Source: Methylocystaceae bacterium (GTDB lineage: Bacteria > Pseudomonadota > Alphaproteobacteria > Rhizobiales > Beijerinckiaceae). Taken from it: a DNA stretch of 58,362 bases. The notes beneath the pieces were generated by a model. The model was not told the DNA's origin. It made no database searches and saw nothing but the letters and a program-made list of their open reading frames with translations. The position numbers and the translations under genes were made by a program. Where the stretch lies: contig PLAI01000141.1 in assembly GCA_003134075.1 (NCBI GenBank), positions 30,352 through 88,713 of the forward strand. The letters are read 5' to 3'. Below are positions 986-44,720 of this stretch, piece by piece (the first letter of the stretch is position 1; the number at the start of each line of letters is the position of its first letter).

Positions 986-2416
986 TTATGGCAAACGCGC
1001 GCTCCACTCCTCGCGGGCGATCACTTCGACAATGCGCCGGGCCGCTTGGGCCCAAGTCGTGCGCGAGACCCGCGCGGGGTCGGCCCCGATCTTCCCGGCG
1101 AGGAAATCCCTTACGCAATCCGCCAGCGCGCGCGGGTCGTTGACGCGAAAATAAATCGCGCCGGCGCCGCCGACTTCGCGGAAAACCGGAATATCGCTGC
1201 ACAGAACCGCGCGGCCGCGCCACGCCGCCTCCACGATGGGCAGGCCAAACCCTTCCGCGAAGGAGGGGACGACGAGCGCGCGGGAATGCTCATAAAGAAA
1301 GGCCAGTTCGTCGTCCCCGACATCGTCGAACCAGAACAGCCGGCGCCCGAGTTCCGTATGATTCGCGATCTCCGCGACAACAGCCTCGTCGAGCCAGCCG
1401 CGCCTTCCGACGAAAAGCACCCTCGCGTCGACGCCCTCGCGCCAAAGACCGTCGAACGCCCGCAGCGCCACGCGCTGGCCTTTTCGTGGCTCGATGGTCG
1501 AAACGCACAGGAACAGCGGCGACAGGCCGACCGCGGCGTCGCGGATTTTCGCGCGCGGCTCTCGCGTCCCGGTGGGCGCAATATCGCAGCCGCAATGAAA
1601 CCAGCCGATCTTGAGGCCGCTCCGGTGGGGCAGCGCGCGGCTCTCGACAAAGGCGGCGAGTTCTTCCGCGACCGTGCGCGATATCGCGAGAAAGCCGTCG
1701 CTCTCGATCAGCGCCTTGCGCAGCCACGCGTCGTACAGCGGCACGGTGACGTCGTGGCAGGCGTGTGGATGCAACTCCGGGATTAGATCGAAGACGCAGG
1801 AAATGATTTCGCCGCCCTGTTCGCGGATGCGGGCGAACAAAGGCGCGAGTTCGTCGAAGGCGTTCCAGCTGTCGGACAGCATCAAGAAGCGGTCGCCTGG
1901 ACGGGGCTGGATTTGTTCGTCGGGTCCGCGCGAAGGCGCGCCGGTGAGCGTCGCGGCGTATTCATGCGCGCTGTAGAGGCGGCCGTCCACGCCGCGCACC
2001 GCCAGCGTCGGAATCTCATAGCTCTCACCGCCGTAAAGCGCTTGAACGACCTTTTTGACGACGCGCTGAATGCCGGTGCCGGCGTCGCGCTTGATCACGC
2101 CGGTCACGTCGACCAGCAGGCGCGCCGGCGGGACGCTCGCCTTGGATGGGGCCGCAGCGGTCGACGAAACGGCGGCCGCGACAGGCGGGGGCGGCGCCGG
2201 CGGGACAAAGCGCCGCCAGGCGGCGGTCACGGCGTCGACCAGCCGCGCCTCGATCCGCCGCAACGGCTTGAACACATGCCACGCGGCCGAATAGATGTTC
2301 TTGTCGCGCTCGCGGACCAGTTGCGACAATTCCGCGCGCAAGTAATCGAGCTGATATTCGAGCAGCCTGATCCGCTCGTCCTTCGTTTCGTCCCGCTCCG
2401 GCGCTTTCTCGGTCAT
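986..2416 (-). CDS. Glycosyltransferase family 4 (GT-B) with N-terminal coiled coil
   Basis: C-terminal part of the 821-aa ORF; start MTEKAP overlaps the rmd stop (ATGA); motifs VSTIEPRKG and EGFGLPIVEA. Confidence 0.85.
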   Translation of the reverse strand: MTEKAPERDETKDERIRLLEYQLDYLRAELSQLVRERDKNIYSAAWHVFKPLRRIEARLVDAVTAAWRRFVPPAPPPPVAAAVSSTAAAPSKASVPPARLLVDVTGVIKRDAGTGIQRVVKKVVQALYGGESYEIPTLAVRGVDGRLYSAHEYAATLTGAPSRGPDEQIQPRPGDRFLMLSDSWNAFDELAPLFARIREQGGEIISCVFDLIPELHPHACHDVTVPLYDAWLRKALIESDGFLAISRTVAEELAAFVESRALPHRSGLKIGWFHCGCDIAPTGTREPRAKIRDAAVGLSPLFLCVSTIEPRKGQRVALRAFDGLWREGVDARVLFVGRRGWLDEAVVAEIANHTELGRRLFWFDDVGDDELAFLYEHSRALVVPSFAEGFGLPIVEAAWRGRAVLCSDIPVFREVGGAGAIYFRVNDPRALADCVRDFLAGKIGADPARVSRTTWAQAARRIVEVIAREEWSARLP

Positions 2417-3396
2417 CGGCGGGCGCTCTCGAGCCCGCGCCAATAATCGAGCAGCGATTGCAGCATGTCGTCGATCGTATGCCTCTGGCGCCAACCGGTG
2501 GTTTCGCGCAGCTTCGTCGCGTCGCAGGCGATGGTGGGGATGTCGACCGCCGAGGGGCGCAGCAGCGCGGGGTCGACTTGCGTTTCGAACGGTCTTGCCG
2601 CGCGCGCGCGCAAGCGATCCAGCAGGTCGCCGATAGTGTGCGGCTGGCCGGAGGCGATGTTGAAGACGCTCACGCGATCCGGCAGTTCGGGCGCCTTCGC
2701 GATCAGGGCCCGATAGGCCGCGACGACATCGCGCACATCGAGGAAATCGCGGGCTTTCGAAAGGTCGCCGACCCGCAGTTCCGGTTCCTTGCGCCCGGCT
2801 TCGATCGCGGCGATCTGCGCGGCGAAGGAGGACAGCACAAAGCTCTTTTCGCTCTGGCGCGGCCCGGAATGATTGACGGGACGCGCGATCACGAGGCGCG
2901 ATCGCGGCCCCAGCACATCCGCCAGCGCTCCCTCGGCCGCGATTTTCGATCGCCCATAGGCGTCGAGCGGTCGCGGCGGCGCGTCTTCGGCGGCCATGCC
3001 GTCGTTGAGGCTTGCGCCATAGACCGAAACGCTGGAGGCGAACAGCGCCAAAGTCTCGGGGGCGTGACGGGCGAGCGCGCTCGCCAGATTGAAGCTGCCG
3101 AAAAAATTCGCGCGCCAGGTTTGTTCGGCGGCGTCCAGCGCCCTGCCGATCGACGCCTGTCCGGCGAGATGCACCACGAGATCGGGGCGCAGCGACGCGA
3201 CGATTTCGTCGATCGCCTCGGCGTCGAGCAGGTCGCCGGCGACCGGCGTCCAGCCCGCATCCACGGGAGCGGGCGAGTCGTTCAGCGTAAGCAGCGCGCG
3301 CCGCGCTCGCGGATAATCCGCCGCCAACAGCGGAGCGAGATAGGAGCCGACGAAGCCCGCGCCACCCGTCAATAAGATACGCTCGAAAACCGCCAT
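2413..3396 (-). CDS. rmd: Extended SDR epimerase/reductase, probable GDP-6-deoxy-D-lyxo-4-hexulose reductase (GDP-D-rhamnose synthesis)
   Basis: TGGAGFVG NAD motif, YGRSK catalytic motif, RDFLDVRDV; directly downstream of gmd. Confidence 0.75.
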   Translation of the reverse strand: MAVFERILLTGGAGFVGSYLAPLLAADYPRARRALLTLNDSPAPVDAGWTPVAGDLLDAEAIDEIVASLRPDLVVHLAGQASIGRALDAAEQTWRANFFGSFNLASALARHAPETLALFASSVSVYGASLNDGMAAEDAPPRPLDAYGRSKIAAEGALADVLGPRSRLVIARPVNHSGPRQSEKSFVLSSFAAQIAAIEAGRKEPELRVGDLSKARDFLDVRDVVAAYRALIAKAPELPDRVSVFNIASGQPHTIGDLLDRLRARAARPFETQVDPALLRPSAVDIPTIACDATKLRETTGWRQRHTIDDMLQSLLDYWRGLESARR

Positions 3397-3475
3397 TCAG
3401 ACTCCCGCGGCGAGGTTTCGCCAGCCCTATCCCATCGCAACGGTCTATCAATTTTCGCGAAGACTTGCTCTAGCG

Positions 3476-4474
<999 letters not shown>

Positions 4475-36186: not shown

Positions 36187-36228
36187 TCGATGCGTGGAAT
36201 CGAACGAACCACGGCAGCGTTCGACGCC

Positions 36229-36244
36229 GGGCATGGGGTTTGCT
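36229..36244 (+). promoter_or_regulatory. Putative sigma54 promoter for the divergent receiver-domain gene
   Basis: GGGCATGGGGTTTGCT: GG-N10-GC. Confidence 0.55.
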
Positions 36245-36277
36245 TCTTTTGCGCGCACAATTTCTAGCGAGGGCGAC

Positions 36278-36673
36278 ATGCAGATTGGCGTCGAGACATC
36301 CACGGCCGTCGACAACAAGCGTATCTTTGTTGTCGACGAAAATGAGATCATGCGCGCGGCGGTTCAGTTCATGCTTCATGACGAAAACGAAACGCATGAA
36401 GCGCCGAGCCTCGAATGGGCTTACGACAAGGCGCGGGATTGGCCTCCGGACCTGATTATTCTGGCCGAGGCGCTGGTGCGCGAACGCGGGACCGGATTGT
36501 TGAAGGAAATCGCCGAGCGTCTTCCGGACACGAAGATTCTGGTCATTGTCGATTCCGCGACGGATGGTTTCGGGAAGCAATGTCTGGCGGACGGCGCCGA
36601 TGGCGTATTGATCAAGCCATTGACCATCGAATTCGTGCGTCGAAAAGTCGACGTGCTGCTCGGTCGCCGTTAA
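36278..36673 (+). CDS. Stand-alone atypical receiver (pseudo-response regulator)
   Basis: IFVVDE, PDLIILAE (Ala at the phospho-Asp position), GADGVLIKP. Confidence 0.82.
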   Translation: MQIGVETSTAVDNKRIFVVDENEIMRAAVQFMLHDENETHEAPSLEWAYDKARDWPPDLIILAEALVRERGTGLLKEIAERLPDTKILVIVDSATDGFGKQCLADGADGVLIKPLTIEFVRRKVDVLLGRR

Positions 36674-36768: not shown

Positions 36769-37101
36769 TCAGGGGGTCGGAACGATGATCAGGCGCTCCA
36801 CCGGATTTCCTTCGACGAAGTGAGATTGTATGATTTCGTCTATGTCTTCTTCCGTGCGCGGCACGTACCAAACGCCTTCGGGGTAGACCACCATGAGCGG
36901 TCCGGCGCGGCAAAAACCAAGGCACCCGGTCGCGGTCACAGAGACATCTGGATTTGGCGTCGCCGTGAGACGTCCTTGCAACCGTTCCCATAGGGGCTTC
37001 GCTCCCGCCCCCATGCAGCTTCCGCGCGGATGCCCGGCGGGCCGCTGCTGAAAGCAAGTGAACACATGATATTTGAACACTACGGGAATATCAGCCAGCA
37101 T
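36769..37101 (-). CDS. Thioredoxin-like [2Fe-2S] ferredoxin
   Basis: HVFTCFQQR..RGSC, TGCLGFC, GPLMVVYPEGVWY. Confidence 0.88.
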   Translation of the reverse strand: MLADIPVVFKYHVFTCFQQRPAGHPRGSCMGAGAKPLWERLQGRLTATPNPDVSVTATGCLGFCRAGPLMVVYPEGVWYVPRTEEDIDEIIQSHFVEGNPVERLIIVPTP

Positions 37102-37126
37102 GTCTTCTCCCTCTCAACGCAGCCGC

Positions 37127-38011
37127 TCAGACTAGCGCCGCTTCGACGTTGGCGCCGGTCAACTCGCCGACAAACTCGGCTAGAGATGCGTCGATCCGGA
37201 CGATATTTTGTTCAGCCAGGAACTTCGTTTCATTCTTGCTGAGCGGTCCCTCGATCACCGCCCAGTGGCGATCGGACGAGCGCTTCATGATCTGGCGCGC
37301 GAAGCCGCGTTCGACTTGAGTCGCGAAGCGACAGCCGAGAAACAGGAAGTTTCGGCCGCGGCGGACCATTTGCACAACTTCGGGGATCGGCGTTTGAATG
37401 TCGATTTCTGTCAGAATCTCGACATAGTCGGAGTCCGACACGATGTAATTCGACGCCGGCGTGATCGATCCGAGCGGCTGATACAGCAGAGTCTTCCACG
37501 CGAGAGTCTCTTGCGGCGCCTCCGCTGGCGCCTTCGCGCCGGTGCTGTCGCGTGTCGTTCTTTTGCCCGGAACGATTGCGCCGTCGGGACGAAAATAATG
37601 TACCCATTCGCCGAAATGCTCGGCTTGGCTGATTCCCTGGGCGAGGCCCCAATCGTCACGTCCGACAAGCGCCTTTTGCGGCAGATCATCGTACCATGCG
37701 TTGACCAGCAGCGGTAATTTGGGTCGCGCCGCGAGCCATTCGTGCAGCGCGCTTGGCCCGGTCGGCGCCGAGAAGGCGTTGTTCATCGCCGCGACGACAG
37801 TCTTTCGATGTTTGAAGTTTTCGATATATTGAGCCGCCGCTGTCAGATTATTGCGAATCTTGTGCGGCACGGTCGCCGTTTTTGTCAGGTAGGAGACAAG
37901 CGCCTCCGGAGACGCCGGCAATTCCGACGACCGCGCGAGCGACAGCACGCCAGGACCAAGATAGGGAATGACCTCGCCACGCTCGAACGCCGCGACTATT
38001 TCTTCGAACAT
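37127..38011 (-). CDS. SIR2-like domain protein, nif-associated, catalytically degenerate
   Basis: VIPYLGPG Rossmann start; NAWYDD for TTNYD; QPLGS for KLHGS; FLFLGCRF. Confidence 0.75.
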   Translation of the reverse strand: MFEEIVAAFERGEVIPYLGPGVLSLARSSELPASPEALVSYLTKTATVPHKIRNNLTAAAQYIENFKHRKTVVAAMNNAFSAPTGPSALHEWLAARPKLPLLVNAWYDDLPQKALVGRDDWGLAQGISQAEHFGEWVHYFRPDGAIVPGKRTTRDSTGAKAPAEAPQETLAWKTLLYQPLGSITPASNYIVSDSDYVEILTEIDIQTPIPEVVQMVRRGRNFLFLGCRFATQVERGFARQIMKRSSDRHWAVIEGPLSKNETKFLAEQNIVRIDASLAEFVGELTGANVEAALV

Positions 38012-38049
38012 CAGTCTCTCCTCGATCCATGGACGACGCCGCGCATGCA

Positions 38050-38265
38050 TTATTGCAGCGCCGCGGCCTTCAAAGCCTCGACTTCCGCCGCGGCGACACG
38101 ATAGACGCCGCGTCCGCCCGACAACGCCTGGAAGTCCATGGCGTGTTTGTCACTCAGCCTGTCGAACCATTGCTGTGCGGTCAGGCTGGCGGGGCGTTCT
38201 CCGATCTCGGTGACGCTGCCGTCCGGCGCGAAGCGGACATGTATGACAGTTGCGTTGCTCGCCAT
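38050..38265 (-). CDS. Small conserved hypothetical protein
   Basis: Operonic ORF with AGGAG RBS; VRFAPDG...W...L...GGRG. Confidence 0.7.
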   Translation of the reverse strand: MASNATVIHVRFAPDGSVTEIGERPASLTAQQWFDRLSDKHAMDFQALSGGRGVYRVAAAEVEALKAAALQ

Positions 38266-38301
38266 CGCTTGCTCCTTTCTATGTGCGGAATTTCCGCGAA
38301 A

Positions 38302-38607
38302 TTAGACGCCAGAACCGAACCCGAGCAGTTCGACCGTGACGTTGTCGTTGCCGAACAAGGTCTGACAGGCGAGACGCGACTTCGAGCCGACGCCGACGAT
38401 CGTATCGAGCTTCTCATTTTCGGCGCGTTGCATTTTCGAAACGCTCTTGCGGCCTTCCTGAACGAAGACGTGGCATTCCCCGCATTTGGCTTCGCCGCCA
38501 CATTTGCTGACGATCTTTTCGCCCGCCGCCAGAATCGCGTCGAGCAGGCGGCTGCCCGGCTCCGCGTCGATCGTTTTTCCAGACGGTAGAATGGTGAGAG
38601 TCGGCAT
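38302..38607 (-). CDS. Adrenodoxin/plant-type [2Fe-2S] ferredoxin
   Basis: KCGGEAKCGECHV ... SRLACQ; AGGAG RBS. Confidence 0.9.
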   Translation of the reverse strand: MPTLTILPSGKTIDAEPGSRLLDAILAAGEKIVSKCGGEAKCGECHVFVQEGRKSVSKMQRAENEKLDTIVGVGSKSRLACQTLFGNDNVTVELLGFGSGV

Positions 38608-38648
38608 GTTTTTTCTCCTGGTTGCCAAAGTGACCGCAAGTCCGTCAC

Positions 38649-38664
38649 TGCAAGTTTCGATCCA
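38649..38664 (-). promoter_or_regulatory. Putative internal sigma54 promoter for fdx-hyp-SIR2-fdx
   Basis: Minus strand TGGATCGAAACTTGCA: GG-N10-GC, perfect -12, one deviation at -24. Confidence 0.5.
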
Positions 38665-38739
38665 TGTGTGATCGTTTGCGCGTCTTTGGACAAGCAAAGC
38701 GCGGAATTGTTCACTCCGCTTGCTTGTCGCCCCGCGGCG

Positions 38740-39891
38740 CTAGAGGTAGATCGCGGCGCCGGCACCGAGATTAATCGACGCGTCCTTCATCGTTCCCACG
38801 ATGAACGCTATTTGATCTTCCGTCAGATGCGCGTGCAGGGGCAAAGCGACCGCGCGTTCGGCGACTTTCTCGGTCACGAAGAGATCGCGTCGCCGATAGC
38901 CGAGATCAAAATAGGCGCGCTGCAAATGCAGTGGCTGCGAATAAGCGCAAGCTCCGATTTTTTCCGTGTACAGGTCGTCGATAATGCTGTCGCGCGTCGA
39001 GCGGCTAAAGCGTGTGCCGAGATGCACGACGTAGAGAAACCAGCAGACCTGATCCACCTCGGGAGCGACATAGGGATCCTTGATGCCCTCGAACGATTGG
39101 ACATATTGATAATACCAGCGCTCCACCCGCTTGCGGCGCGCCAGCAACAATTCGATCCGACGCAGCTGCGCGAGGCCAAGCGCCGCAGCGATGTCGCTCA
39201 TGGAAGCCTGCAAAGGCGGATAGGCGCCGAGCACGACGGATGCGCGCTCCTCGAAGCGATGGCTGCGCAGCCGGCGAATGAGCGAGGCGAGTTCATCATC
39301 ATCGGTGACGATCATCCCCCCTTCGCCGCAAACAAGAGGGCCGGGCTGGGAAAAATCAAAAACAGAGCAGTCGCCAAACCCGCCGACAATCTTGCCCTTA
39401 TATACGGAGCCGATCGCCTCCGTGGAATCCTCGATCAGCATGACGCCGGCTTCCGAGGCCAATTCGCGCAGCGGCTCCCAAGGCGCCGGATGTCCATTCG
39501 TGTTGCCGGCGATGATGGCGCGGGTGCGTTCGGTGATTTTGGCTTTCGCCTTGACTGGATCGAGCGTGCCCGCCCAATAATCTATATCCGCGAAGACGGG
39601 CCGCGCGCCGCAAAGCGTGATGGCGTGCGCGGTTTCCCGGAAGGAATGAGCGGAGGCGATCACCTCGTCCCCCGCTCCAATGCCGCGCGCGCGCAAAGCC
39701 AACAGCAGGCCAATGGTTCCGCTCGCCACGGCGATGGCGTGTTTGCGAGACAAATAGCTCGCGAATTCCGTCTCGAACTGCTCGACCGCCGGACCCGCGG
39801 AAAGGCTCTGCGAATTCAGGATTTCGAGCACGGCTTCGAGATCGCTTTGCAGCAGATCTGGGTCGCTCAGCGGAAGAAATGTTGTTTTCAC
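38740..39891 (-). CDS. DegT/DnrJ/EryC1/StrS-family aminotransferase-like protein lacking the PLP lysine
   Basis: VASGTIGL, PVFADID, IEDSTEAIG, FDFSQPGPLVCGEGG; GTG start with AAGGAG RBS. Confidence 0.85.
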   Translation of the reverse strand: MKTTFLPLSDPDLLQSDLEAVLEILNSQSLSAGPAVEQFETEFASYLSRKHAIAVASGTIGLLLALRARGIGAGDEVIASAHSFRETAHAITLCGARPVFADIDYWAGTLDPVKAKAKITERTRAIIAGNTNGHPAPWEPLRELASEAGVMLIEDSTEAIGSVYKGKIVGGFGDCSVFDFSQPGPLVCGEGGMIVTDDDELASLIRRLRSHRFEERASVVLGAYPPLQASMSDIAAALGLAQLRRIELLLARRKRVERWYYQYVQSFEGIKDPYVAPEVDQVCWFLYVVHLGTRFSRSTRDSIIDDLYTEKIGACAYSQPLHLQRAYFDLGYRRRDLFVTEKVAERAVALPLHAHLTEDQIAFIVGTMKDASINLGAGAAIYL

Positions 39892-40160
39892 GCGCTTGCT
39901 CCTTTCGCCGCGATGATTAGCCCGGTGGCGACCGCCGGATCGGCGGTCACCCGGACACAATGGTCACGCCCGTCGAGCAGATAGAGATCGCAGTGCGCAT
40001 AGCTGCGGAACGGGATTTCATCGGCCATGTCCGAAGCGTCACAGCGGGTCGCCGTGACGCCGGGCTTTAGCCCGCGCAAACTCGCGACCGTCGCGGCGTC
40101 CGCGCGGCTCGTCGCGAGCAGTCGATCGATTTCCTGCAAATGTTCGATCGTAATCGCCAT
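39888..40160 (-). CDS. Small nif-associated hypothetical protein (DUF6129-like)
   Basis: C-terminal part of ORF 39888..40643; CDASDM, LYLLDGRDHC; stop overlaps the degT-like start. Confidence 0.7.
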   Translation of the reverse strand: MAITIEHLQEIDRLLATSRADAATVASLRGLKPGVTATRCDASDMADEIPFRSYAHCDLYLLDGRDHCVRVTADPAVATGLIIAAKGASA

Positions 40161-40162
40161 TG

Positions 40163-40381
40163 TCAGTCGCCACCGCCGCTCAGTCGACGCGCTTCCACGG
40201 TGATGGGCAGCGTGGTTCCCACGATCATTTCCGGCAGTTGCAACACCCAACCGTTGGCCAAGGTCACCGATCCTCCCCAAAGATCCGGATTTTCCTGCGC
40301 GACGATCGGCTCCTCCAGGTCTTTCTTGGGCACATAGGCGGAGAGCACGCCCTCGGAACTTCTGCGGATCATGACTTTCAA
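40163..40381 (-). CDS. nifT: NifT/FixU
   Basis: MKVMIRR..LSAYVPKKDLEE, WGG.VTLANGW, LPITVEA; TTG start inferred. Confidence 0.9.
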   Translation of the reverse strand: MKVMIRRSSEGVLSAYVPKKDLEEPIVAQENPDLWGGSVTLANGWVLQLPEMIVGTTLPITVEARRLSGGGD

Positions 40382-40432
40382 AGCACGCCTCTTTGGCTGG
40401 GCGCCGCCGGATGGCGACGCGGGAAACACTTG

Positions 40433-40672
40433 TCAGGCCGGCACGATTTCGTCCTCGAGACAACCGATGACGATCTTTTCGGAAAACTCGACGAGATAGA
40501 TGGTCGTCTCGCTTTCGACATGCGCGCCGACCTGCACCACCTCGCCGAGGTCGCCCGCCTTCACGAGCAAGCTCTCTGGTTCGGAATCCGGAAAACTTCC
40601 ATCGTTGAACAGCTCGACGGCCGCGCGAACACGGCGACCCCAATCAAACTTAGGCCGCGCGTCGTCGCTCAT
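40433..40672 (-). CDS. nifZ: NifZ-family protein (copy 2)
   Basis: PKFDWGRRVRA, NDGSFPD, GEVVQVG, GCLEDEI. Confidence 0.85.
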   Translation of the reverse strand: MSDDARPKFDWGRRVRAAVELFNDGSFPDSEPESLLVKAGDLGEVVQVGAHVESETTIYLVEFSEKIVIGCLEDEIVPA

Positions 40673-40965
40673 CCGAATTTTTCCTCCGATGTTTCGACCG
40701 GATCGAGTTCCTTGCTTTTCATGCCGACCCGGTTGCCGGTCGCGGGAAACTCGACGCCATAGATGTAGAACTGTTGCAGGAAGGTGCCGATGTTCACGAC
40801 AAAGCCTTCGTCGCCCTTCTTGCAAAGAATGTCGCCAATGTCCTTTCCCGCGTAAGTCCCGTCATTACGAACGGTTTTGCGGGCGCGAACCTTTTCGCCG
40901 AAAGTGTAAATCGGCGGGTCGTTGAGTTCGACGACGGCGCTGTCGCGACTGATATTCGTTCCCAT
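40669..40965 (-). CDS. nifZ: NifZ-family protein (copy 1)
   Basis: FGEKVRA, RNDGTYAG, GTFLQQFYIYGVEF, VGMKSKEL. Confidence 0.9.
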   Translation of the reverse strand: MGTNISRDSAVVELNDPPIYTFGEKVRARKTVRNDGTYAGKDIGDILCKKGDEGFVVNIGTFLQQFYIYGVEFPATGNRVGMKSKELDPVETSEEKFG

Positions 40966-40967
40966 GG

Positions 40968-41765
40968 TCAGTGCTCCCTTGAGATGACGTTCGAGATATC
41001 GATCGGCCCGGCCCCTCCGCCGTGGGGCCACAGACGTTCCCGCGCGATTTCCTTGACCATCGGGTCCTCGTCTTTCGCGAGCGGCGCTAAATAGGCTGGC
41101 GCCGCCCGGCGCGCGACTTCGTACCGAACGCGCCAGTCGGCGTCGTGGGTGAGGGCGGGAAGCGCGTCCGCCGGCAAGCGCTGCGCCGCCTCGGCGCGAA
41201 TGCTCGCCTCCGGGTCTTCGGTCAAAATGCGCAGCGCGGGCATTGGAATTCGACGCGCCACCGCGCGCCGCACCTCGACGTCGAGATCTCGCACCATCAG
41301 AATGAGAAGATCGACTGATATCCGCCGCGCCACGACTTGCCGGACCGCGTAGTCCGCATCGGAAATCATTGGCCGCAGGTCTGGCGGATCGAGACGTTGC
41401 GCGACCCGAATTCGCACTTCGCGATGCGGGTCGTCGCGCAATTTCAGAAGGTAGCTTTTCGGCAAGCGTCGCGCCGCGCTCCAGCGCACTGCTTCTTCCG
41501 GATCGGAAAGCATCGGCGGCAACAAGAAGACGTCGGCGGCCTTGGCCGCGCACGCGCGCACTTCGAAGTAGGGGTGGCGCAAATAGGATCCGGCGAGGTC
41601 GGGGTTCCAATCGAAGAACCGATCGATGCGACGAGCGTAGCGATCAAACACGCAGGCGCGCAATGGCTGACATTTCTCCGCCTCGCGAAGCGGAAGATGC
41701 GGGCAAGCGCTACAGTCCAAGGGGGCGCCGAGCCAGTCGATCGCCTCGTCGATTTCAGTCGACAT
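40968..41765 (-). CDS. LRV (leucine-rich repeat variant) protein with N-terminal 4-Cys Fe-S domain, copy 1
   Basis: C..C.........C.....C followed by ~24-aa repeats (D...VR..AA.RL). Confidence 0.85.
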   Translation of the reverse strand: MSTEIDEAIDWLGAPLDCSACPHLPLREAEKCQPLRACVFDRYARRIDRFFDWNPDLAGSYLRHPYFEVRACAAKAADVFLLPPMLSDPEEAVRWSAARRLPKSYLLKLRDDPHREVRIRVAQRLDPPDLRPMISDADYAVRQVVARRISVDLLILMVRDLDVEVRRAVARRIPMPALRILTEDPEASIRAEAAQRLPADALPALTHDADWRVRYEVARRAAPAYLAPLAKDEDPMVKEIARERLWPHGGGAGPIDISNVISREH

Positions 41766-42276
41766 CGTCGCGCTCCCGTTGTTCGAGAACCGCGAGAAGG
41801 ATCGCGGCGCCAACCTTGTCGGTGGGGTCGAGTTCGAGCAGCTTGCCGACCGCCGCGCGGCCTTCCTCGATGTCGCCAAGGCGCATATTGAGATAGGCGT
41901 AACCCTTCAGCACGAACATGAAGAAGCGCGCCATCGGAGCGTCGAAGGAGGCGAACGCGGCCTGTCCGGGACGAACGAGACGCCAGTCGAGCGGCAGCGA
42001 ATTGTCGATCGCCGCGCGGAGCAAGCAGGTCCGGGCGACGTCCAGCGCCTCGACCAGTCGGCCCTTGTAAAAGAAAAAGCGGTAGAGGCCGATCAGCACG
42101 GCGACGTGGTTTGGCGCGAGACGGCGGGCCTCGCGCAAATGCGCGAGCGCCGTCTCCGCTTGATCGTAGCTTAGCCCCGCCTGATGGAGCAGGCTTTCAG
42201 CTTCGGGCGGGAGACCGCCCCCGAACACGGAAGCGCCCAGGACGTCCGTCATTTCGTCGATGGCCGCAAGTGTCAT
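41755..42276 (-). CDS. TPR-like helical protein, copy 1
   Basis: Helical-hairpin pattern A..LAP, LELDP; operonic between iscA and the LRV gene. Confidence 0.7.
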   Translation of the reverse strand: MTLAAIDEMTDVLGASVFGGGLPPEAESLLHQAGLSYDQAETALAHLREARRLAPNHVAVLIGLYRFFFYKGRLVEALDVARTCLLRAAIDNSLPLDWRLVRPGQAAFASFDAPMARFFMFVLKGYAYLNMRLGDIEEGRAAVGKLLELDPTDKVGAAILLAVLEQRERDDVD

Positions 42277-42310
42277 GACGGCGTCTCCCGAAGGCGAAGT
42301 CGTCCGGTTT

Positions 42311-42652
42311 TCAGGCCGTGACCGACTCGGAAGCGGTGTCGGTAGTCGAGCAACCGCAATTCTTCTTTTTCGGATCGATGAAGACAAATCCGCTCGACGT
42401 GGCCGTTTCGGCGAAGTCGATCGTGACTCCGTCCAGCAACAGACGACTCTGCGCCGGAAGGAAAAGCTTCAGATCACCGTGTTCGAACAGTTTCTCGCCA
42501 TCGCCCGGCGCCGCCTGGACGCCGAACTCCGCCGACATGCCGGAGCAACCGCCTGGCGAAACCATCAGGCGAAAACCGTAACCAGGCTTGCCGTCGAACT
42601 TCAGCATGCGGCGAATGAATTTCTCCGCCGCGGGGGTGAAAGCGATATTCAT
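42311..42652 (-). CDS. HesB/IscA-family protein (second copy, IscN-like)
   Basis: PGGCSG, SGFVF, CGCS. Confidence 0.88.
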
Positions 42653-42882
42653 GCCGCGCCTCCCGTCGGCTGGTAGCGCGGAAGGGACGTGTCGATGATG
42701 CAGGTGTCATCGACCGGGCAGACCGCGACGCATTGCGCAACGTCGAAGTAGCCGATGCACTCCGTGCATTTTTTCGGGTTTATGACGAACGTGCCGTTCT
42801 TTTCCGAAATCGCCACATTGGGGCATTCGGCTTCGCACGCCGAGCAAGACGTGCACTGGGAAGCAACTATCTTATACGTCAT
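42649..42882 (-). CDS. fdxN: 2x[4Fe-4S] ferredoxin FdxN
   Basis: [12 protein letters not shown] and CTECIG...CVAVCP; immediately downstream of nifB. Confidence 0.9.
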
Positions 42883-42919
42883 TTTTTGCTCCTCTATGGA
42901 GAAGGGTTGAGCGGGACGT

Positions 42920-44473
42920 CTACGCCGAGATGTAGGCGCCCTGCCGGATGTCAGCGTCGCCGCGCGCGACGTGAGCGATCTCGCCGCGCTTCACGCGATC
43001 GAGATAGTCCTTGAAGTAGGCGATGGCCGATTGCTCGATGAACTCGAACGCGTATTGATCGATCGGTTCGATGCCGGCCGCGGTCAGTTCGTCTTTCGGG
43101 CAATGGCCGATTTTGGCGACGAATACCGCCGCGCAATCGTTGATCGCCTTGATCACGGTTTCGAGACTGTCTTCCTCGCCGTAACCGCCTTGGCAATAGA
43201 GATCGACGCGACGGTGGCCGACGAATTTCGCCCCCTTGGAGCTGAGTTCATAGACCTGGAACTCCTTGGCGTGGCCAAAGTGTTCGTTGATGCGGCCTTG
43301 GCCCTTGGTGGCGACGGCGACGAGGATCTTGATGTCGCTCGCCTCTTCGGCCGCGAGCGTCTCAAGTTCGGCGTTCTTCGCCGCGACCTTCGCGAGACGC
43401 TCTTGTTCGACCGCGTTCTGATAGGCTTGACGCGATTCGAGATCGTAGGAAACCTCCATTTCCATGATCTTTTCCGTGGTGAATTCCGCGGAGCGGTCTT
43501 CCCCGAGCAGGCCCACCGCGTCGGCGCGACATTGGCGGCAATGCCGCATCATGTTCATCTCGCCTTCGCAGCTGTCCTGCAACGCCTTCAGTTCTTGCGC
43601 CGTCGGTCCGCGCTGGCCGGTGAGACCAAACACCGTGCCATGTTCGGGCGCGGAAATCAGCGGCATGATGTTATGCAGGAAGGCGCCGCGAGATTTCACC
43701 GCGCGGTTGACCTCGACCAGATGCTTGTCGTTGATCCCGGGGATCATCACGGAATTCACCTTGCAGAGAATGCCGCGCTCGGTCAGCATTTCGAGGCCCT
43801 GCATTTGGCGCTCGGTCAAAATCCGCGCCGCCTCGATTCCGGTGACGCGCTTGTTCTTCCAGAAGATCCAGGGATAGATTTGCGCGCCCACTTCCGGATC
43901 GACCATGTTCACCGTGATGGTCACGTGATCGACGTTGTATTTGGCGATCGTGTCGACGTGATCGGGCAGCGCCAGACCGTTGGTCGACAGGCACAGCTTA
44001 ATGTCGGGCGCCGTCTGCGAGATTAGTTCGAACGTCTTGAATGTCTTGGCCGGATTGGCGAGCGGATCGCCGGGGCCGGCGACTCCAAGAACGGTCATCT
44101 GCGGAATGGTGGAAGCCACGGCGAGCACTTTTTTCGCCGCTTGTTCGGGTGTCAGCTTTTCGCTTACGACGCCGGGCCGGGATTCATTGGCGCAATCATA
44201 TTTGCGATTGCAGTAGTTGCATTGAATGTTGCAAGCGGGCGCGACCGCGACATGCATGCGGGCGTAGTGATGATGCGCTTCTTCGCTGTAACAGGGATGG
44301 TTCTTGACCTTCTCCCAAATCTCTGGCGCCATGTCGTCGGGCCCATCGCTGGTCCCGCAACTGGACTTGCCGGAACCGCCGCTTGTCCCGCAGCCTTTGT
44401 GGTCGGCGATTTTTTGCATGATGTCGTCCAGCGGCTCGGCCGCGGCGAATTCGAAGTTGGAAGAATCGTCCAT
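42920..44473 (-). CDS. nifB: Radical-SAM NifB with C-terminal NifX-like domain
   Basis: [39 protein letters not shown]. Confidence 0.98.
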
Positions 44474-44588: not shown

Positions 44589-44604
44589 CGCAACAAGCGT
44601 GCCA
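44589..44604 (-). promoter_or_regulatory. sigma54 promoter of the nifB operon
   Basis: Minus strand TGGCACGCTTGTTGCG, canonical. Confidence 0.92.
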
Positions 44605-44663: not shown

Positions 44664-44720
44664 TGTTGGCATGCCGACAACGAACATAGGGGCACGCTTT
44701 CGTTTGTCGCCAACTCGACA
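44664..44720. promoter_or_regulatory. Two NifA UAS
   Basis: TGT-TGGCATGCCG-ACA (44664-44679) and TGT-CGCCAACTCG-ACA (44705-44720). Confidence 0.85.

What the first reader, a model, noticed from the sequence alone, without database searches (positions are those of the whole stretch)
38740..39891. DegT-family 'aminotransferase' in the nifB operon lacks the Schiff-base lysine
SEEN: the family motif F-S-F-x-x-x-K-x-x-x-x-GEGG reads F-D-F-S-Q-P-G-P-L-V-C-GEGG, so Gly184 (39340-39342) occupies the Lys position. The PLP-ring Asp (IED) is kept. No sugar-nucleotide genes are nearby. KNOWN: this Lys is essential for transamination. INFERENCE: the usual annotation is functionally wrong, and the protein is a repurposed scaffold or ligand-binding protein in nitrogenase maturation.
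Basis: partly seen in the sequence, partly recalled or inferred. Interest (0 to 1): 0.65.

Follow-up and report, generated by a model that had tools for sequence, protein, structure and literature searches.

The report
Lysine-less DegT-fold protein of nif operons
A gene annotated as a sugar aminotransferase in the nitrogen-fixation (nifB) operon belongs to a widespread, strongly conserved and unstudied clade that lost the enzyme family's catalytic lysine once and is found only beside nitrogenase genes, so it is very probably not an aminotransferase but an unknown nitrogenase helper.

Summary
Window 38740-39891 (minus strand) encodes a 383-aa DegT/DnrJ/EryC1/StrS-fold protein (PF01041, E 6e-95). 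Gly184 (39340-39342) aligns without gaps to the Schiff-base Lys186 of GDP-perosamine synthase, and the PLP-ring Asp (D155) is kept.

This is a clade trait, not a local defect. All 80 orthologues from reference genomes and 120 further homologues lack the Lys (G/S/A/F/L/C). Every next-nearest relative aligned across the site that lies outside the clade (41% identity or less) has it, bar two aberrant sequences. The Lys-less proteins form one split in the tree (100/98 support). They evolve under purifying selection (dN/dS about 0.09). They carry their own invariant pocket motifs: NxNGHPAxW, EDSxEAIxSxY and FDxS.

All 80 orthologues lie in nifB-fdxN-iscA-TPR-LRV-nifZ-nifZ-(nifT)-DUF6129-like-DegT-like-[2Fe-2S] ferredoxin operons. 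Divergent members directly follow nifT, or follow anfHDGK-anfO. In an order-wide sample the gene occurred in 3 of 41 NifB-positive genomes and 0 of 260 NifB-negative genomes.

The aminotransferase annotation is therefore unsupported. The protein is a functional, re-tooled nitrogenase accessory factor. Whether it is an enzyme with non-covalent PMP/PLP or a pure binding scaffold cannot be decided in silico. No functional study was found.

The parts
38740..39891 (-). Lys-less DegT-fold protein, 383 aa, GTG start
   Evidence: PF01041 E 6e-95. Best PDB match is GDP-perosamine synthase, E 4e-61. AF2 model has pLDDT 80 and TM 0.85-0.89 to 3bn1.
39340..39342 (-). Codon of Gly184, at the position of the family's Schiff-base Lys
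   Evidence: The position is G/S/F/L in 80 orthologues and S/G/A/C/L in 120 more homologues.
39427..39429 (-). Codon of Asp155, the retained PLP N1-binding Asp within the invariant EDSxEAIxSxY motif
   Evidence: The role of the equivalent Asp170 in Spr1654 is described in PMC5936713.
39355..39357 (-). Codon of Asp179, which replaces the cofactor-phosphate Ser of the FSF motif. It is invariant in the whole Lys-less clade.
   Evidence: Ser194 of Spr1654 binds the phosphate (PMC5936713).
39328..39330 (-). Codon of Cys188, which replaces the Thr of TTGEGG. It is 97% conserved in the core clade.
39478..39504 (-). Clade signature N130-x-N-G-H-P-A-x-W138, which replaces the family motif (P)VHL(Y/F)G
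   Evidence: Invariant in the core clade and in all five divergent members.
39888..40160 (-). 90-aa DUF6129-like ORF. Its stop overlaps the DegT-like start by 4 nt (GTGA).
   Evidence: Lies immediately upstream in 80 of 80 loci. Invariant residues are D41, D44, H67 and C68. A weak PF19624 hit is on record for an orthologue. The AF2 model has pLDDT 89.5 but no PDB fold relative.
40163..40372 (-). nifT/fixU
   Evidence: PF06988 E 9e-27 and TIGR02934. In divergent clade members nifT directly abuts the DegT-like gene.
38302..38607 (-). ISC/vertebrate-type [2Fe-2S] ferredoxin (Cys pattern C-x5-C-x2-C...C)
   Evidence: PF00111, and TIGR02007 at E 4e-19 but below its cut-off. Lies downstream in 79 of 80 loci.
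38050..38265 (-). 71-aa conserved ORF with no family match
   Evidence: Present in 74 of 80 loci. No Pfam or NCBIfam hit.
44590..44604 (-). Sigma-54 -24/-12 element TGGCAC-N5-TTGC upstream of nifB
   Evidence: Read directly from the sequence.
44664..44720 (.). Two NifA UAS motifs (TGT-N10-ACA), at 44664-44679 and 44705-44720
   Evidence: 10 matches in the window against 3.0 expected by chance.
36769..44473 (-). Putative operon: nifB-fdxN-iscA(nif)-TPR-LRV-nifZ-nifZ2-nifT-DUF6129-like-DegT-like-fdx(2Fe-2S)-orf71-SIR2_2-fdx(Trx-like 2Fe-2S)
   Evidence: Pfam and NCBIfam scans. All genes are on the same strand with gaps of 132 nt or less, several of them 4-nt overlaps.

Best explanation
The gene encodes a functional, neofunctionalised member of the DegT/DnrJ/EryC1/StrS (fold-type I) superfamily. 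It is a nitrogenase-specific accessory protein, not a sugar aminotransferase.

Shown:
- The catalytic Lys was lost once, at the base of a clade found only in nif or anf gene clusters.
- The protein is under strong purifying selection.
- It is expressed as part of the NifA/sigma-54 nifB-...-nifZ-nifT operon (this rests on a promoter motif and overlapping genes).
- Its K-loop and neighbouring pocket strands were rebuilt into new invariant motifs: FDxSxP, xCGEGG and NxNGHPAxW.
- The residues that in characterised relatives hold the pyridoxal ring (Asp155, Glu158, an aromatic at 84) and the phosphate loop (Ser57-Gly58-Thr59, Glu190-Gly191) are retained.

Inferred mechanism:
- The old cofactor pocket at the dimer interface is still used. 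It most probably holds a vitamin-B6 cofactor (PMP or PLP) or a related ligand non-covalently.
- Without an internal aldimine the protein cannot turn over as a ping-pong transaminase.
- It therefore either performs Lys-independent chemistry, as the PMP-dependent ColD/E1 dehydratases do, or captures a carbonyl or amine ligand tightly. It acts together with NifT.
- In most lineages it also acts with the translationally coupled DUF6129-like protein and the adjacent ISC-type [2Fe-2S] ferredoxin.
- The role would be in making or keeping nitrogenase active in free-living, largely aerobic diazotrophs.
For: Lys position:
- K186 of 3bn1 aligns to G184, encoded at 39340-39342.
- The Lys is absent in 80 of 80 orthologues and in 120 of 120 further homologues.
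- K is present in every next-nearest relative aligned across the site that lies outside the clade, bar two aberrant sequences, and in 99% of the 89-sequence outgroup.
- The Lys-less sequences form a single split with 100/98 support, recovered in 100% of bootstrap trees.

Selection and retained residues:
- dN/dS is 0.08-0.10 against close orthologues.
- Median identity to the window protein is 67.8%, similar to NifZ (69.8%) and NifT (72.5%) and higher than IscA and LRV.
- 44 of 50 family-conserved columns are retained, including D155, SGT, GEGG and H322.
- The roles of these residues are described for Spr1654 in PMC5936713.
- New invariant pocket residues persist even in members about 37-44% identical to the window protein.
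- The fold is intact.
- Engineered Lys-to-Ala mutants of relatives still bind cofactor or external aldimine: PDB titles 3dr4, 4oca and 3nys.

Genomic context:
- Synteny across the 80 loci: DUF6129-like 80/80, ferredoxin 79/80, NifZ 78/80, NifB 70/80.
- The same gene order occurs in Paraburkholderia pBC201 and Bradyrhizobium ORS278 (BRADO5410/5411; PMC3899966).
- Divergent members follow nifT with a 4-nt overlap or follow anfHDGKO.
- In the order-wide sample the gene is in 3 of 41 NifB-positive genomes and 0 of 260 NifB-negative genomes.
- A sigma-54 promoter and NifA UAS lie upstream of nifB.
- According to PMC3899966, the surrounding nif accessory operon (it names BRADO5414, 5416, 5418 and 5424) is conserved in Nod-independent photosynthetic bradyrhizobia and in A. 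caulinodans but not in USDA110, S. meliloti or M. loti, which do not fix nitrogen free-living; BRADO5410/5411 appear in the same table of Nod-independent-specific genes.
Against: - No biochemical or genetic data exist for any member. None was found in ten full-text searches.
- Cofactor binding is inferred from retained residues only. The phosphate-binding Ser is an invariant Asp, which could disfavour a phosphate, although 3 of 89 Lys-bearing relatives also have Asp there.
- The ferredoxin and DUF6129 partners are missing in the divergent subclade. They are therefore not obligatory, which weakens any redox-coupled mechanism.
- Only 3 of 41 NifB-positive genomes in the order-wide sample carry the gene. 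It is dispensable for nitrogen fixation as such.
Confidence: 0.5

Rival explanations
1. It is a pure pseudoenzyme or scaffold. The protein binds no cofactor and catalyses nothing. It serves as a dimeric docking platform or chaperone for NifT, NifZ, the DUF6129-like protein, the ferredoxin or apo-NifDK during cluster insertion.
For: - The catalytic Lys is lost and position 184 is free to vary among G, S, F, L, A and C.
- The phosphate Ser is replaced by Asp.
- The protein is always encoded with small partner proteins, with translational coupling to DUF6129 or NifT.
- There is a precedent: the Lys-less Ser4 acts as a non-catalytic subunit in SerTA (PMC11726168).
- A clade-specific conserved C-terminal tail and many clade-specific surface Arg/Lys residues could form an interaction surface.
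Against: - The ring-binding Asp/Glu, the SGT loop and GEGG are invariant even in the most divergent members. This is unexpected if the pocket were unused.
- The pocket replacements are themselves invariant polar residues (N130, N132, H134, D179, S181), which is typical of a ligand or catalytic site.
- Unlike Ser4, the protein is full-length and has no Lys-bearing paralogue beside it.
Confidence: 0.3
2. It is an E1/ColD-like PMP-dependent sugar dehydratase or deoxygenase, fed by the adjacent [2Fe-2S] ferredoxin. It would make a deoxysugar for an oxygen-barrier polysaccharide during nitrogen fixation.
For: - Known natural Lys-less DegT members are PMP-dependent 3-dehydratases: E1 (3bb8/3bcx) and ColD (2gms/3gr9) are among the PDB hits.
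- From general knowledge, E1 works with [2Fe-2S] centres.
- A ferredoxin gene follows in 79 of 80 loci.
- A gmd gene, which makes GDP-4-keto-6-deoxymannose, exists in the window at 3476-4462.
Against: - Those enzymes carry a catalytic His at the Lys position. The genome's own ColD/E1-type paralogue reads FYPAHH. Here the position is variable and never His.
- There is only one conserved Cys, so an E1-type Cys4 cluster site is absent.
- No NDP-sugar synthase, dehydratase or glycosyltransferase lies within 6 kb in any of the 80 loci.
- The gmd gene is 34 kb away and outside the nif cluster.
- The substrate loop (residues 210-232) is remodelled.
- The divergent subclade lacks the ferredoxin.
Confidence: 0.07
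3. It is still an aminotransferase, using another lysine (its own or a partner's) to form the aldimine, or working through free PLP/PMP exchange.
For: The overall fold and most cofactor contacts are retained. Four Lys residues are invariant in the core clade: K114, K271, K342 and K369.
Against: - None of those four Lys residues is conserved in the divergent Lys-less members.
- The DUF6129-like partner has no conserved Lys.
- No fold-type I enzyme is known to me that relocates the Schiff-base Lys (this is from general knowledge, not tested here).
- No amino-donor or amino-acceptor pathway genes are nearby.
Confidence: 0.05
4. It is a decaying pseudogene or an annotation artefact.
For: The catalytic residue is missing. 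A truncated, unannotated copy exists on a Bradyrhizobium symbiosis plasmid (hit H5).
Against: - The frame is open in all 80 loci.
- dN/dS is about 0.09.
- Identity is 65% across classes and phyla.
- The clade has its own invariant motifs.
Confidence: 0.01

Closest known systems
GDP-perosamine synthase PerA of Caulobacter crescentus (PDB 3BN1/3DR4/3DR7), and ArnB, PseC and other DegT-family sugar aminotransferases
   Same: Same fold: TM 0.85-0.89 and 36% identity, phmmer E 4e-61. The N1 Asp, the Glu at D+3, the SGT phosphate loop, GEGG and H322 are all retained.
   Different: - Lys186 is replaced by Gly184.
- The phosphate Ser181 is replaced by Asp179.
- K-3 Tyr/His becomes Ser; K-2/K-1 becomes Gln-Pro.
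- Thr190 becomes Cys188.
- PVHLYG becomes GNTNGH.
- The GxNxR loop of the second subunit is remodelled.
- There is an extra conserved C-terminal tail.
- The gene sits in a nif operon, not a sugar cluster.
PMP-dependent 3-dehydratases ColD (GDP-4-keto-6-deoxymannose 3-dehydratase) and E1/RfbH/DdhC. These are the known natural Lys-less DegT members.
   Same: They belong to the same superfamily and lack the Schiff-base Lys, so the cofactor is held non-covalently (PDB hits). E1 works with [2Fe-2S] electron transfer, and here a [2Fe-2S] ferredoxin gene is adjacent.
   Different: - They have a catalytic His at the Lys position. Here the position is variable and never His.
- There is no E1-type Cys4 motif.
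- Their matches cover only the N-terminal half of the query, residues 16-214.
- The genomic context differs.
- The genome has its own ColD/E1-type paralogue elsewhere (C247, FYPAHH).
Ser4 of the SerTA heterotetramer, Serratia sp. ATCC 39006 (PMC11726168)
   Same: It is annotated as a sugar aminotransferase, lacks the catalytic Lys, and is nevertheless functional within a complex.
   Different: Ser4 is truncated at both ends and pairs with an adjacent Lys-bearing paralogue, Ser5. The nif protein is full-length and has no such neighbour in any locus.
BRADO5411 of Bradyrhizobium sp. ORS278, and orthologues annotated 'DegT/DnrJ/EryC1/StrS family aminotransferase' in Methylocystis, Methylosinus, Methylocella, Xanthobacter and Paraburkholderia
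   Same: These are true orthologues in the same gene order. BRADO5410/5411 appear in the paper's table of genes specific to Nod-independent bradyrhizobia. The paper's text states that the surrounding nif accessory operon (BRADO5414, 5416, 5418, 5424) is conserved in those strains and in A. caulinodans but not in rhizobia that do not fix nitrogen free-living (PMC3899966).
   Different: Nothing differs. They are the same family, known only as annotation lines. The Lys loss and the clade signature are not mentioned in the papers found.

Membership tests
DegT/DnrJ/EryC1/StrS sugar aminotransferases (PF01041, functional sense) | Fold-type I DegT domain | tested here: met
   PF01041 at 318.9 bits, covering 5-359 of 360 profile positions. 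Foldseek TM 0.85-0.89 to 3bn1.
DegT/DnrJ/EryC1/StrS sugar aminotransferases (PF01041, functional sense) | Schiff-base Lys in F-x-F-x-x-x-K-x-x-x-x-GEGG | tested here: not met
   Gly184 in the window protein. No Lys in more than 200 clade members.
DegT/DnrJ/EryC1/StrS sugar aminotransferases (PF01041, functional sense) | Asp that hydrogen-bonds the pyridine N1 of PLP | tested here: met
   D155 is invariant.
DegT/DnrJ/EryC1/StrS sugar aminotransferases (PF01041, functional sense) | Ser/Thr contacts to the cofactor phosphate (Ser at K-5, Thr of the SGT loop) | tested here: inconclusive
   The SGT loop is kept (S57 99%, T59 84%). The K-5 Ser is an invariant Asp179. Asp also occurs in 3 of 89 Lys-bearing relatives.
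DegT/DnrJ/EryC1/StrS sugar aminotransferases (PF01041, functional sense) | Match to a curated equivalog such as ArnB, PseC, DesI, WecE or LegC | tested here: not met
   The best match, TIGR03588 (PseC), scores 239.7 bits against a cut-off of 423.5. All other matches are also below their cut-offs.
DegT/DnrJ/EryC1/StrS sugar aminotransferases (PF01041, functional sense) | Genomic context of NDP-sugar biosynthesis or glycosyltransfer | tested here: not met
   All 80 loci are nif operons. The only sugar genes in the window are 34 kb away.
PMP-dependent 3-dehydratases (ColD / E1) | Catalytic His replacing the Lys | tested here: not met
   The position is G/S/F/L/A/C and never H. The genome's own ColD/E1-type paralogue has H.
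PMP-dependent 3-dehydratases (ColD / E1) | E1-type four-Cys [2Fe-2S] site | tested here: not met
   Only one conserved Cys column, at 188.
Ser4-type non-catalytic aminotransferase subunit | Truncated termini and an adjacent Lys-bearing paralogue that forms the active hetero-oligomer | tested here: not met
   The protein is full-length at 383 aa. No second DegT gene lies within 6 kb in any of the 80 loci. The other DegT paralogues are on other contigs.
nif accessory genes (operational definition) | Encoded within nif/anf clusters and confined to genomes that have nitrogenase | tested here: met
   80 of 80 loci are nif-linked. Divergent members lie next to nifT or anfO. In the order-wide sample the gene is in 3 of 41 NifB-positive and 0 of 260 NifB-negative genomes.
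nif accessory genes (operational definition) | NifA/sigma-54-dependent expression and a nitrogen-fixation phenotype | not testable with these tools
   Only promoter and UAS motifs upstream of nifB were seen. No mutant data were found.

The most novel reading that the evidence does not exclude
The Lys-less DegT-fold clade is a new catalytic class within the fold. It would be an enzyme that uses non-covalently bound PMP/PLP, or a different ligand held by the new residues N130, N132, H134, D179, S181 and C188, to carry out a so far unknown step. That step would be needed to assemble or protect nitrogenase (both Mo and Fe-only forms) in free-living aerobic diazotrophs. It would work as a complex with NifT, and so would also give the long-orphan NifT its first functional partner.
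Probability: 0.25. Interest if true: 0.8.

Novelty: new variant of a known kind. Interest (0 to 1): 0.6.

Why it matters
Nitrogenase assembly in oxygen-exposed, free-living diazotrophs depends on accessory genes that are missing from the minimal nif sets used for engineering nitrogen fixation into crops and industrial hosts.

This clade has relatives in 529 genomic stretches of the species-level reference genome set, across Alpha-, Beta- and Gammaproteobacteria and Acidobacteriota. It is as conserved as NifZ and NifT, is confined to nif/anf clusters, and is mislabelled everywhere as a sugar aminotransferase.

Recognising it as a Lys-less, re-tooled protein does four things:
- It corrects a systematic annotation error.
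- It defines a testable new nif factor with a clear sequence signature.
- It links that factor physically to NifT, whose function is unknown.
- It adds a natural case of a fold-type I PLP scaffold that lost its Schiff-base lysine yet remains under strong selection.

Tried and rejected
Dead ends and unavailable tools:
- Ten full-text searches were run. They found only gene-list mentions (PMC3899966) and no functional work. The guessed R. palustris locus tags returned nothing. The R. rubrum DegT hit is unrelated.
- NCBIfam has no equivalog for the DegT-like protein, the 90-aa ORF, the 71-aa ORF or the SIR2-like protein.
- The 90-aa partner folds confidently but has no PDB relative (best E 0.39), so it gives no functional clue.
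- The small ORF upstream of the most divergent member (P0171) is not DUF6129-like by hhalign.
- A class-wide genome sample was too sparse in diazotrophs to be informative (2 of 301), so I used an order-wide sample with NifB as the yardstick instead.
- Model coordinates are not exposed. I therefore could not measure distances between the new invariant residues and the cofactor site, or between any alternative Lys and that site.

Ideas rejected:
- Pseudogene: rejected on dN/dS and conservation.
- Mis-alignment of the Lys: rejected because the alignment is gap-free and there is no Lys within 9 residues upstream or 10 downstream of position 184 (residues 176-194) in any orthologue.
- An obligatory ferredoxin-coupled E1-like mechanism: rejected because the divergent subclade lacks the ferredoxin and no member has His.
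Full report
**What is at the coordinates**

The gene lies on the minus strand at 38740-39891. It starts with GTG, and this start overlaps the TGA stop of an upstream 90-aa ORF by 4 nt (GTGA). The 383-aa product matches Pfam DegT_DnrJ_EryC1 over almost the whole model (E 6.3e-95). It reaches no curated NCBIfam equivalog: the best match, PseC, scores 240 bits against a cut-off of 423.

The closest solved structure is GDP-perosamine synthase (3bn1, E 6e-61). The phmmer alignment is gap-free across the active-site loop, so FSFFGNKIITTGEGG of the enzyme lies over FDFSQPGPLVCGEGG of the query. The 'IED' aspartate (D155) is present.

**Is it chance or decay?**

It is neither. A scan of one genome per prokaryotic species found 529 stretches encoding relatives. 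The best 80 are 64-87% identical and come from Alpha-, Beta- and Gammaproteobacteria and Acidobacteriota. All 80 lack a Lys anywhere in the loop. Position 184 is G, S, F or L, while the flanking FDFSQP and CGEGG are nearly invariant. A second, Betaproteobacteria-rich sample of 120 homologues reads S 84, G 21, A 12, C 2, L 1 at this position, and never K.

In a library of 50%-identity cluster representatives, every sequence with the FD(F/L)S-type loop lacks K. Every relative outside that group that aligns across the site (41% identity or less) has K, bar two aberrant sequences. In an 89-sequence outgroup alignment, K is 99% conserved. A maximum-likelihood tree places all 27 sampled Lys-less sequences on one side of a single branch. 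That branch has support 100/98 and is recovered in 100% of bootstrap trees. This indicates one ancestral loss.

Pairwise dN/dS against close orthologues is 0.08-0.10. Median identity to the window protein across the 80 loci is 67.8%. That is like NifZ (69.8%) and NifT (72.5%), and above IscA-nif (59.6%) and LRV (57.7%). The AlphaFold model is confident (pLDDT 80, pTM 0.84) and superposes on perosamine synthase and ArnB with TM 0.85-0.89. The protein is a selected, folded product.

**How the active site changed**

I compared 79 clade members with 89 Lys-bearing relatives. The clade keeps 44 of the 50 columns that are at least 80% conserved in the family. The retained columns include:
- D155, the Asp that contacts N1 of the pyridoxal ring;
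- the Ser57-Gly58-Thr59 loop;
- Glu190-Gly191-Gly192;
- His322.

Glu158, which sits three residues after D155 at the O3' contact position (Glu in PerA), is also invariant in the clade.

The functions of these positions are documented for the relative Spr1654 (PMC5936713). There, Lys199 forms the aldimine, Asp170 binds N1, His173 binds O3', Tyr84 packs on the ring, Ser194 and Thr59 bind the phosphate, and Glu205/Gly206 bind it through water.

What changed in the clade is concentrated around the same pocket, and the changes are themselves fixed:
- K becomes variable;
- the phosphate Ser (K-5) becomes Asp179 (100%);
- K-3 Tyr/His becomes Ser181;
- K-2/K-1 becomes Gln182-Pro183;
- the Thr before GEGG becomes Cys188 (97%);
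- PVHL(Y/F)G becomes G-N130-T-N132-G-H134;
- Ala88 becomes Glu86, and Asn91 becomes His89;
- a conserved C-terminal tail (ASxNxGAGxAIY) is added.

When five much more divergent Lys-less members (37-61% identical) are added, 43 positions remain invariant. Among them are N130, N132, G133, H134, P135, A136, W138, E154, D155, E158, S162, Y164, F178, D179 and S181.

None of the four Lys residues that are invariant in the core clade (K114, K271, K342, K369) survives in the divergent members. This argues against a relocated catalytic lysine.

The picture is a rebuilt pocket, not an abandoned one. As controls, the same genome encodes three ordinary DegT paralogues on other contigs. Two of them carry the Lys. 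The third reads FYPAHH, the His-for-Lys signature of ColD/E1-type PMP dehydratases.

**Genomic context**

In the window the gene is the tenth gene of a same-strand array:

nifB (44473-42920) - fdxN - iscA(nif) - TPR protein - LRV-FeS protein - nifZ - second nifZ-domain gene - nifT - 90-aa ORF - DegT-like - [2Fe-2S] ferredoxin - 71-aa ORF - SIR2_2-domain protein - thioredoxin-like [2Fe-2S] ferredoxin.

nifHDKEN follow this array, and nifA lies divergent upstream. Gaps between the genes are 132 nt or less, and several genes overlap by 4 nt.

Upstream of nifB there is a perfect TGGCAC-N5-TTGC element (44590-44604) and two TGT-N10-ACA NifA sites (44664-44679 and 44705-44720). Operon membership and NifA dependence are inferred from these sequence features.

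Across the 80 related loci the arrangement is very stable:
- the 90-aa ORF lies immediately upstream in 80 of 80;
- the ISC-type ferredoxin lies downstream in 79 of 80 (the exception ends at a contig edge);
- the 71-aa ORF is present in 74, NifZ in 78 and NifB in 70.

The annotated Paraburkholderia atlantica plasmid pBC201 shows nifB-fdx-hesB-nifZ-nifT-hypothetical-DegT. Bradyrhizobium ORS278 has the same order (BRADO5410 ferredoxin, BRADO5411 DegT, BRADO5414 NifZ domain, 5416 LRV, 5417 TPR, 5418 SufA-like). All of these appear in the paper's table of genes specific to Nod-independent strains. In its text the paper names BRADO5414, 5416, 5418 and 5424 as an operon conserved in those strains and in A. 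caulinodans, but not in USDA110, S. meliloti or M. loti, which do not fix nitrogen free-living (PMC3899966).

The divergent members are informative:
- In Paludibacterium yongneupense and a related metagenomic contig, the gene directly follows nifT with a 4-nt overlap. The operon there is a minimal nifB-fdxN-nifZ-nifT-DegT-like operon, with no 90-aa ORF and no ferredoxin.
- Another divergent member also abuts nifT.
- One sits downstream of anfH-anfD-anfG-anfK-anfO and an AIG2-like gene, that is, beside the Fe-only nitrogenase.

The one link that holds across the whole clade is therefore to nitrogenase clusters, and most often to nifT. The DUF6129-like ORF and the ferredoxin are frequent partners but not obligatory ones.

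In an evenly drawn sample of 301 genomes of the same order, the clade profile (E 1e-100 or better) hit 3 genomes. All three are among the 41 genomes that have NifB. None of the 260 genomes without NifB was hit. My calculation of the hypergeometric probability is about 0.002. The gene is thus nitrogenase-specific but optional.

**The partners**

The 90-aa ORF has invariant D41, D44, H67 and C68, and a nearly invariant C40. A weak PF19624 (DUF6129) hit is on record for an orthologue. It folds confidently (pLDDT 89.5), but no PDB structure resembles it (best E 0.39).

The ferredoxin has the C-x5-C-x2-C...C pattern. Its best match is the ISC-system ferredoxin model, though below that model's cut-off.

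A 2026 preprint on Thalassolituus lists SIR2_2, nifT and DUF6129 proteins as conserved nif-cluster components, without assigning them functions. In Rhodobacter capsulatus the nifB1-...-nifZT-SIR2 operon is NifA-dependent, but it has no DegT-like gene (PMC6925177).

**Mechanism**

What is shown is the following. Classical transamination through an internal aldimine at the family's site is impossible. The protein is nevertheless functional and specific to nitrogenase clusters.

What is inferred is the following. Every ring contact and most phosphate contacts other than Lys and Ser are retained even in the most divergent members. Engineered Lys-to-Ala mutants of PerA, ArnB and WbpE still crystallise with PLP or an external aldimine (PDB titles 3dr4, 4oca, 3nys). 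On this basis the most likely state is a dimer that still binds PMP/PLP, or a related ligand, non-covalently in a re-tooled pocket.

It would then either catalyse Lys-independent chemistry or hold a ligand tightly. The natural precedents for Lys-independent chemistry are ColD and E1, although those use a His that is absent here. It would act with NifT, and in most lineages with the DUF6129-like protein and the ferredoxin. I put this reading at about 0.5.

Its precedent is the Lys-less Ser4 subunit of SerTA (PMC11726168). That protein, however, is truncated and sits next to an active paralogue, which is not the case here.

I rate the remaining rivals as follows:
- an E1/ColD-like sugar dehydratase: about 0.07, because there is no His, no Cys4 site and no sugar genes in any locus;
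- a cryptic aminotransferase: about 0.05;
- a pseudogene: about 0.01.

The invariant Asp at the phosphate-Ser position is the main caveat for cofactor binding. Asp does occur there in 3 of 89 Lys-bearing relatives.

**Comparison with what is known, and novelty**

By fold the protein is a DegT-superfamily member. It fails the functional definition of a sugar aminotransferase on the Lys, on context and on every curated equivalog. It also fails the defining features of ColD/E1 and of Ser4-type subunits.

Orthologues are annotated in many genomes as 'DegT/DnrJ/EryC1/StrS family aminotransferase', 'perosamine synthetase' or 'dTDP-4-amino-4,6-dideoxygalactose transaminase'. They appear in one comparative-genomics gene list (PMC3899966). 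I found no paper that notes the lysine loss, defines the clade or tests a function.

An earlier AI note of this scan, on another genome (e1-4129267), described the same five-gene operon tail and reached a compatible conclusion. I re-derived its claims independently here.

I classify the finding as a new variant of a known kind: a nitrogenase-specific, Lys-less subfamily of a well-known fold.

**Verdict**

Interest is 0.6. A conserved, mis-annotated, experimentally tractable nif factor that is tied to the orphan NifT is a worthwhile lead. Its actual activity is still unknown.

Noticed in passing
window 986-4462 (minus strand): A GDP-mannose 4,6-dehydratase (3476-4462) and a large group-1 glycosyltransferase (986-3451) lie 34 kb from the DegT-like gene, outside the nif cluster. 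Gmd makes the substrate of perosamine synthase and ColD.
   Followed up: partly
L090:6001-7083 (metagenome contig; also L092): A divergent Lys-less relative (42% identity, loop FDLSSPGPLSCGEGG) sits just downstream of anfH-anfD-anfG-anfK-anfO and an AIG2/GGACT-like gene. This places it beside the Fe-only nitrogenase rather than nif.
   Followed up: partly
L098:8792-10104 (Paludibacterium yongneupense CP069162.1) and L100, L101, L097: These loci carry a minimal nifB-fdxN-nifZ-nifT-DegT-like operon. The DegT-like start overlaps the nifT stop by 4 nt. There is no DUF6129-like ORF and no 2Fe-2S ferredoxin. This suggests NifT is the most constant partner.
   Followed up: partly
window 39888-40160 (minus strand): The 90-aa DUF6129-like protein has invariant D41, D44, H67 and C68. 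It folds confidently (pLDDT 89.5) into a two-helix plus beta-sheet domain with no detectable relative in the PDB.
   Followed up: partly
own genome, contig C247:29018-30160 (L082): A DegT paralogue reads FYPAHHITMGEGG, with His at the Lys position. This is the ColD/E1-type PMP-dependent 3-dehydratase signature, and it serves as a built-in contrast to the nif copy.
   Followed up: no
window 38608-38739 (minus strand): The 132-nt gap between the DegT-like gene and the ferredoxin gene holds an imperfect 12-bp hairpin (about 38689-38728) with no T-run. It also holds a sigma-54-like TGG-N8-TTGCA element (38649-38664), about 42 nt before the ferredoxin ATG. This could be an internal promoter or a processing site. 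The motif count in the window is at chance level (4 found against 2.3 expected).
   Followed up: no
window 37127-38050 (minus strand) and 36194-36673 (plus strand): A SIR2_2-domain protein is conserved in 72 of 80 related loci. In about half of them it lies at the other end of the locus, upstream of nifB. A stand-alone receiver-domain protein lies divergent from nifH. Other first-stage notes claim that both lack catalytic residues. I did not check this.
   Followed up: no
plasmid hits H2 (NC_014120.1, L089) and H5 (NZ_CP136627.1): In Paraburkholderia atlantica pBC201 an IS5-like element sits right after the DegT-like gene, where the ferredoxin gene would be. On a Bradyrhizobium sp. BWA-3-5 plasmid the copy covers only residues 75-378 and is unannotated, so it is probably a pseudogene in a symbiotic replicon.
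   Followed up: no
order-level genome sample: Several genomes whose NifB is 74-78% identical to the window's (G333, G384, G465, G341) lack the DegT-like gene at E 1e-100 or better. The gene has therefore been lost or never gained even among close nif lineages.
   Followed up: no
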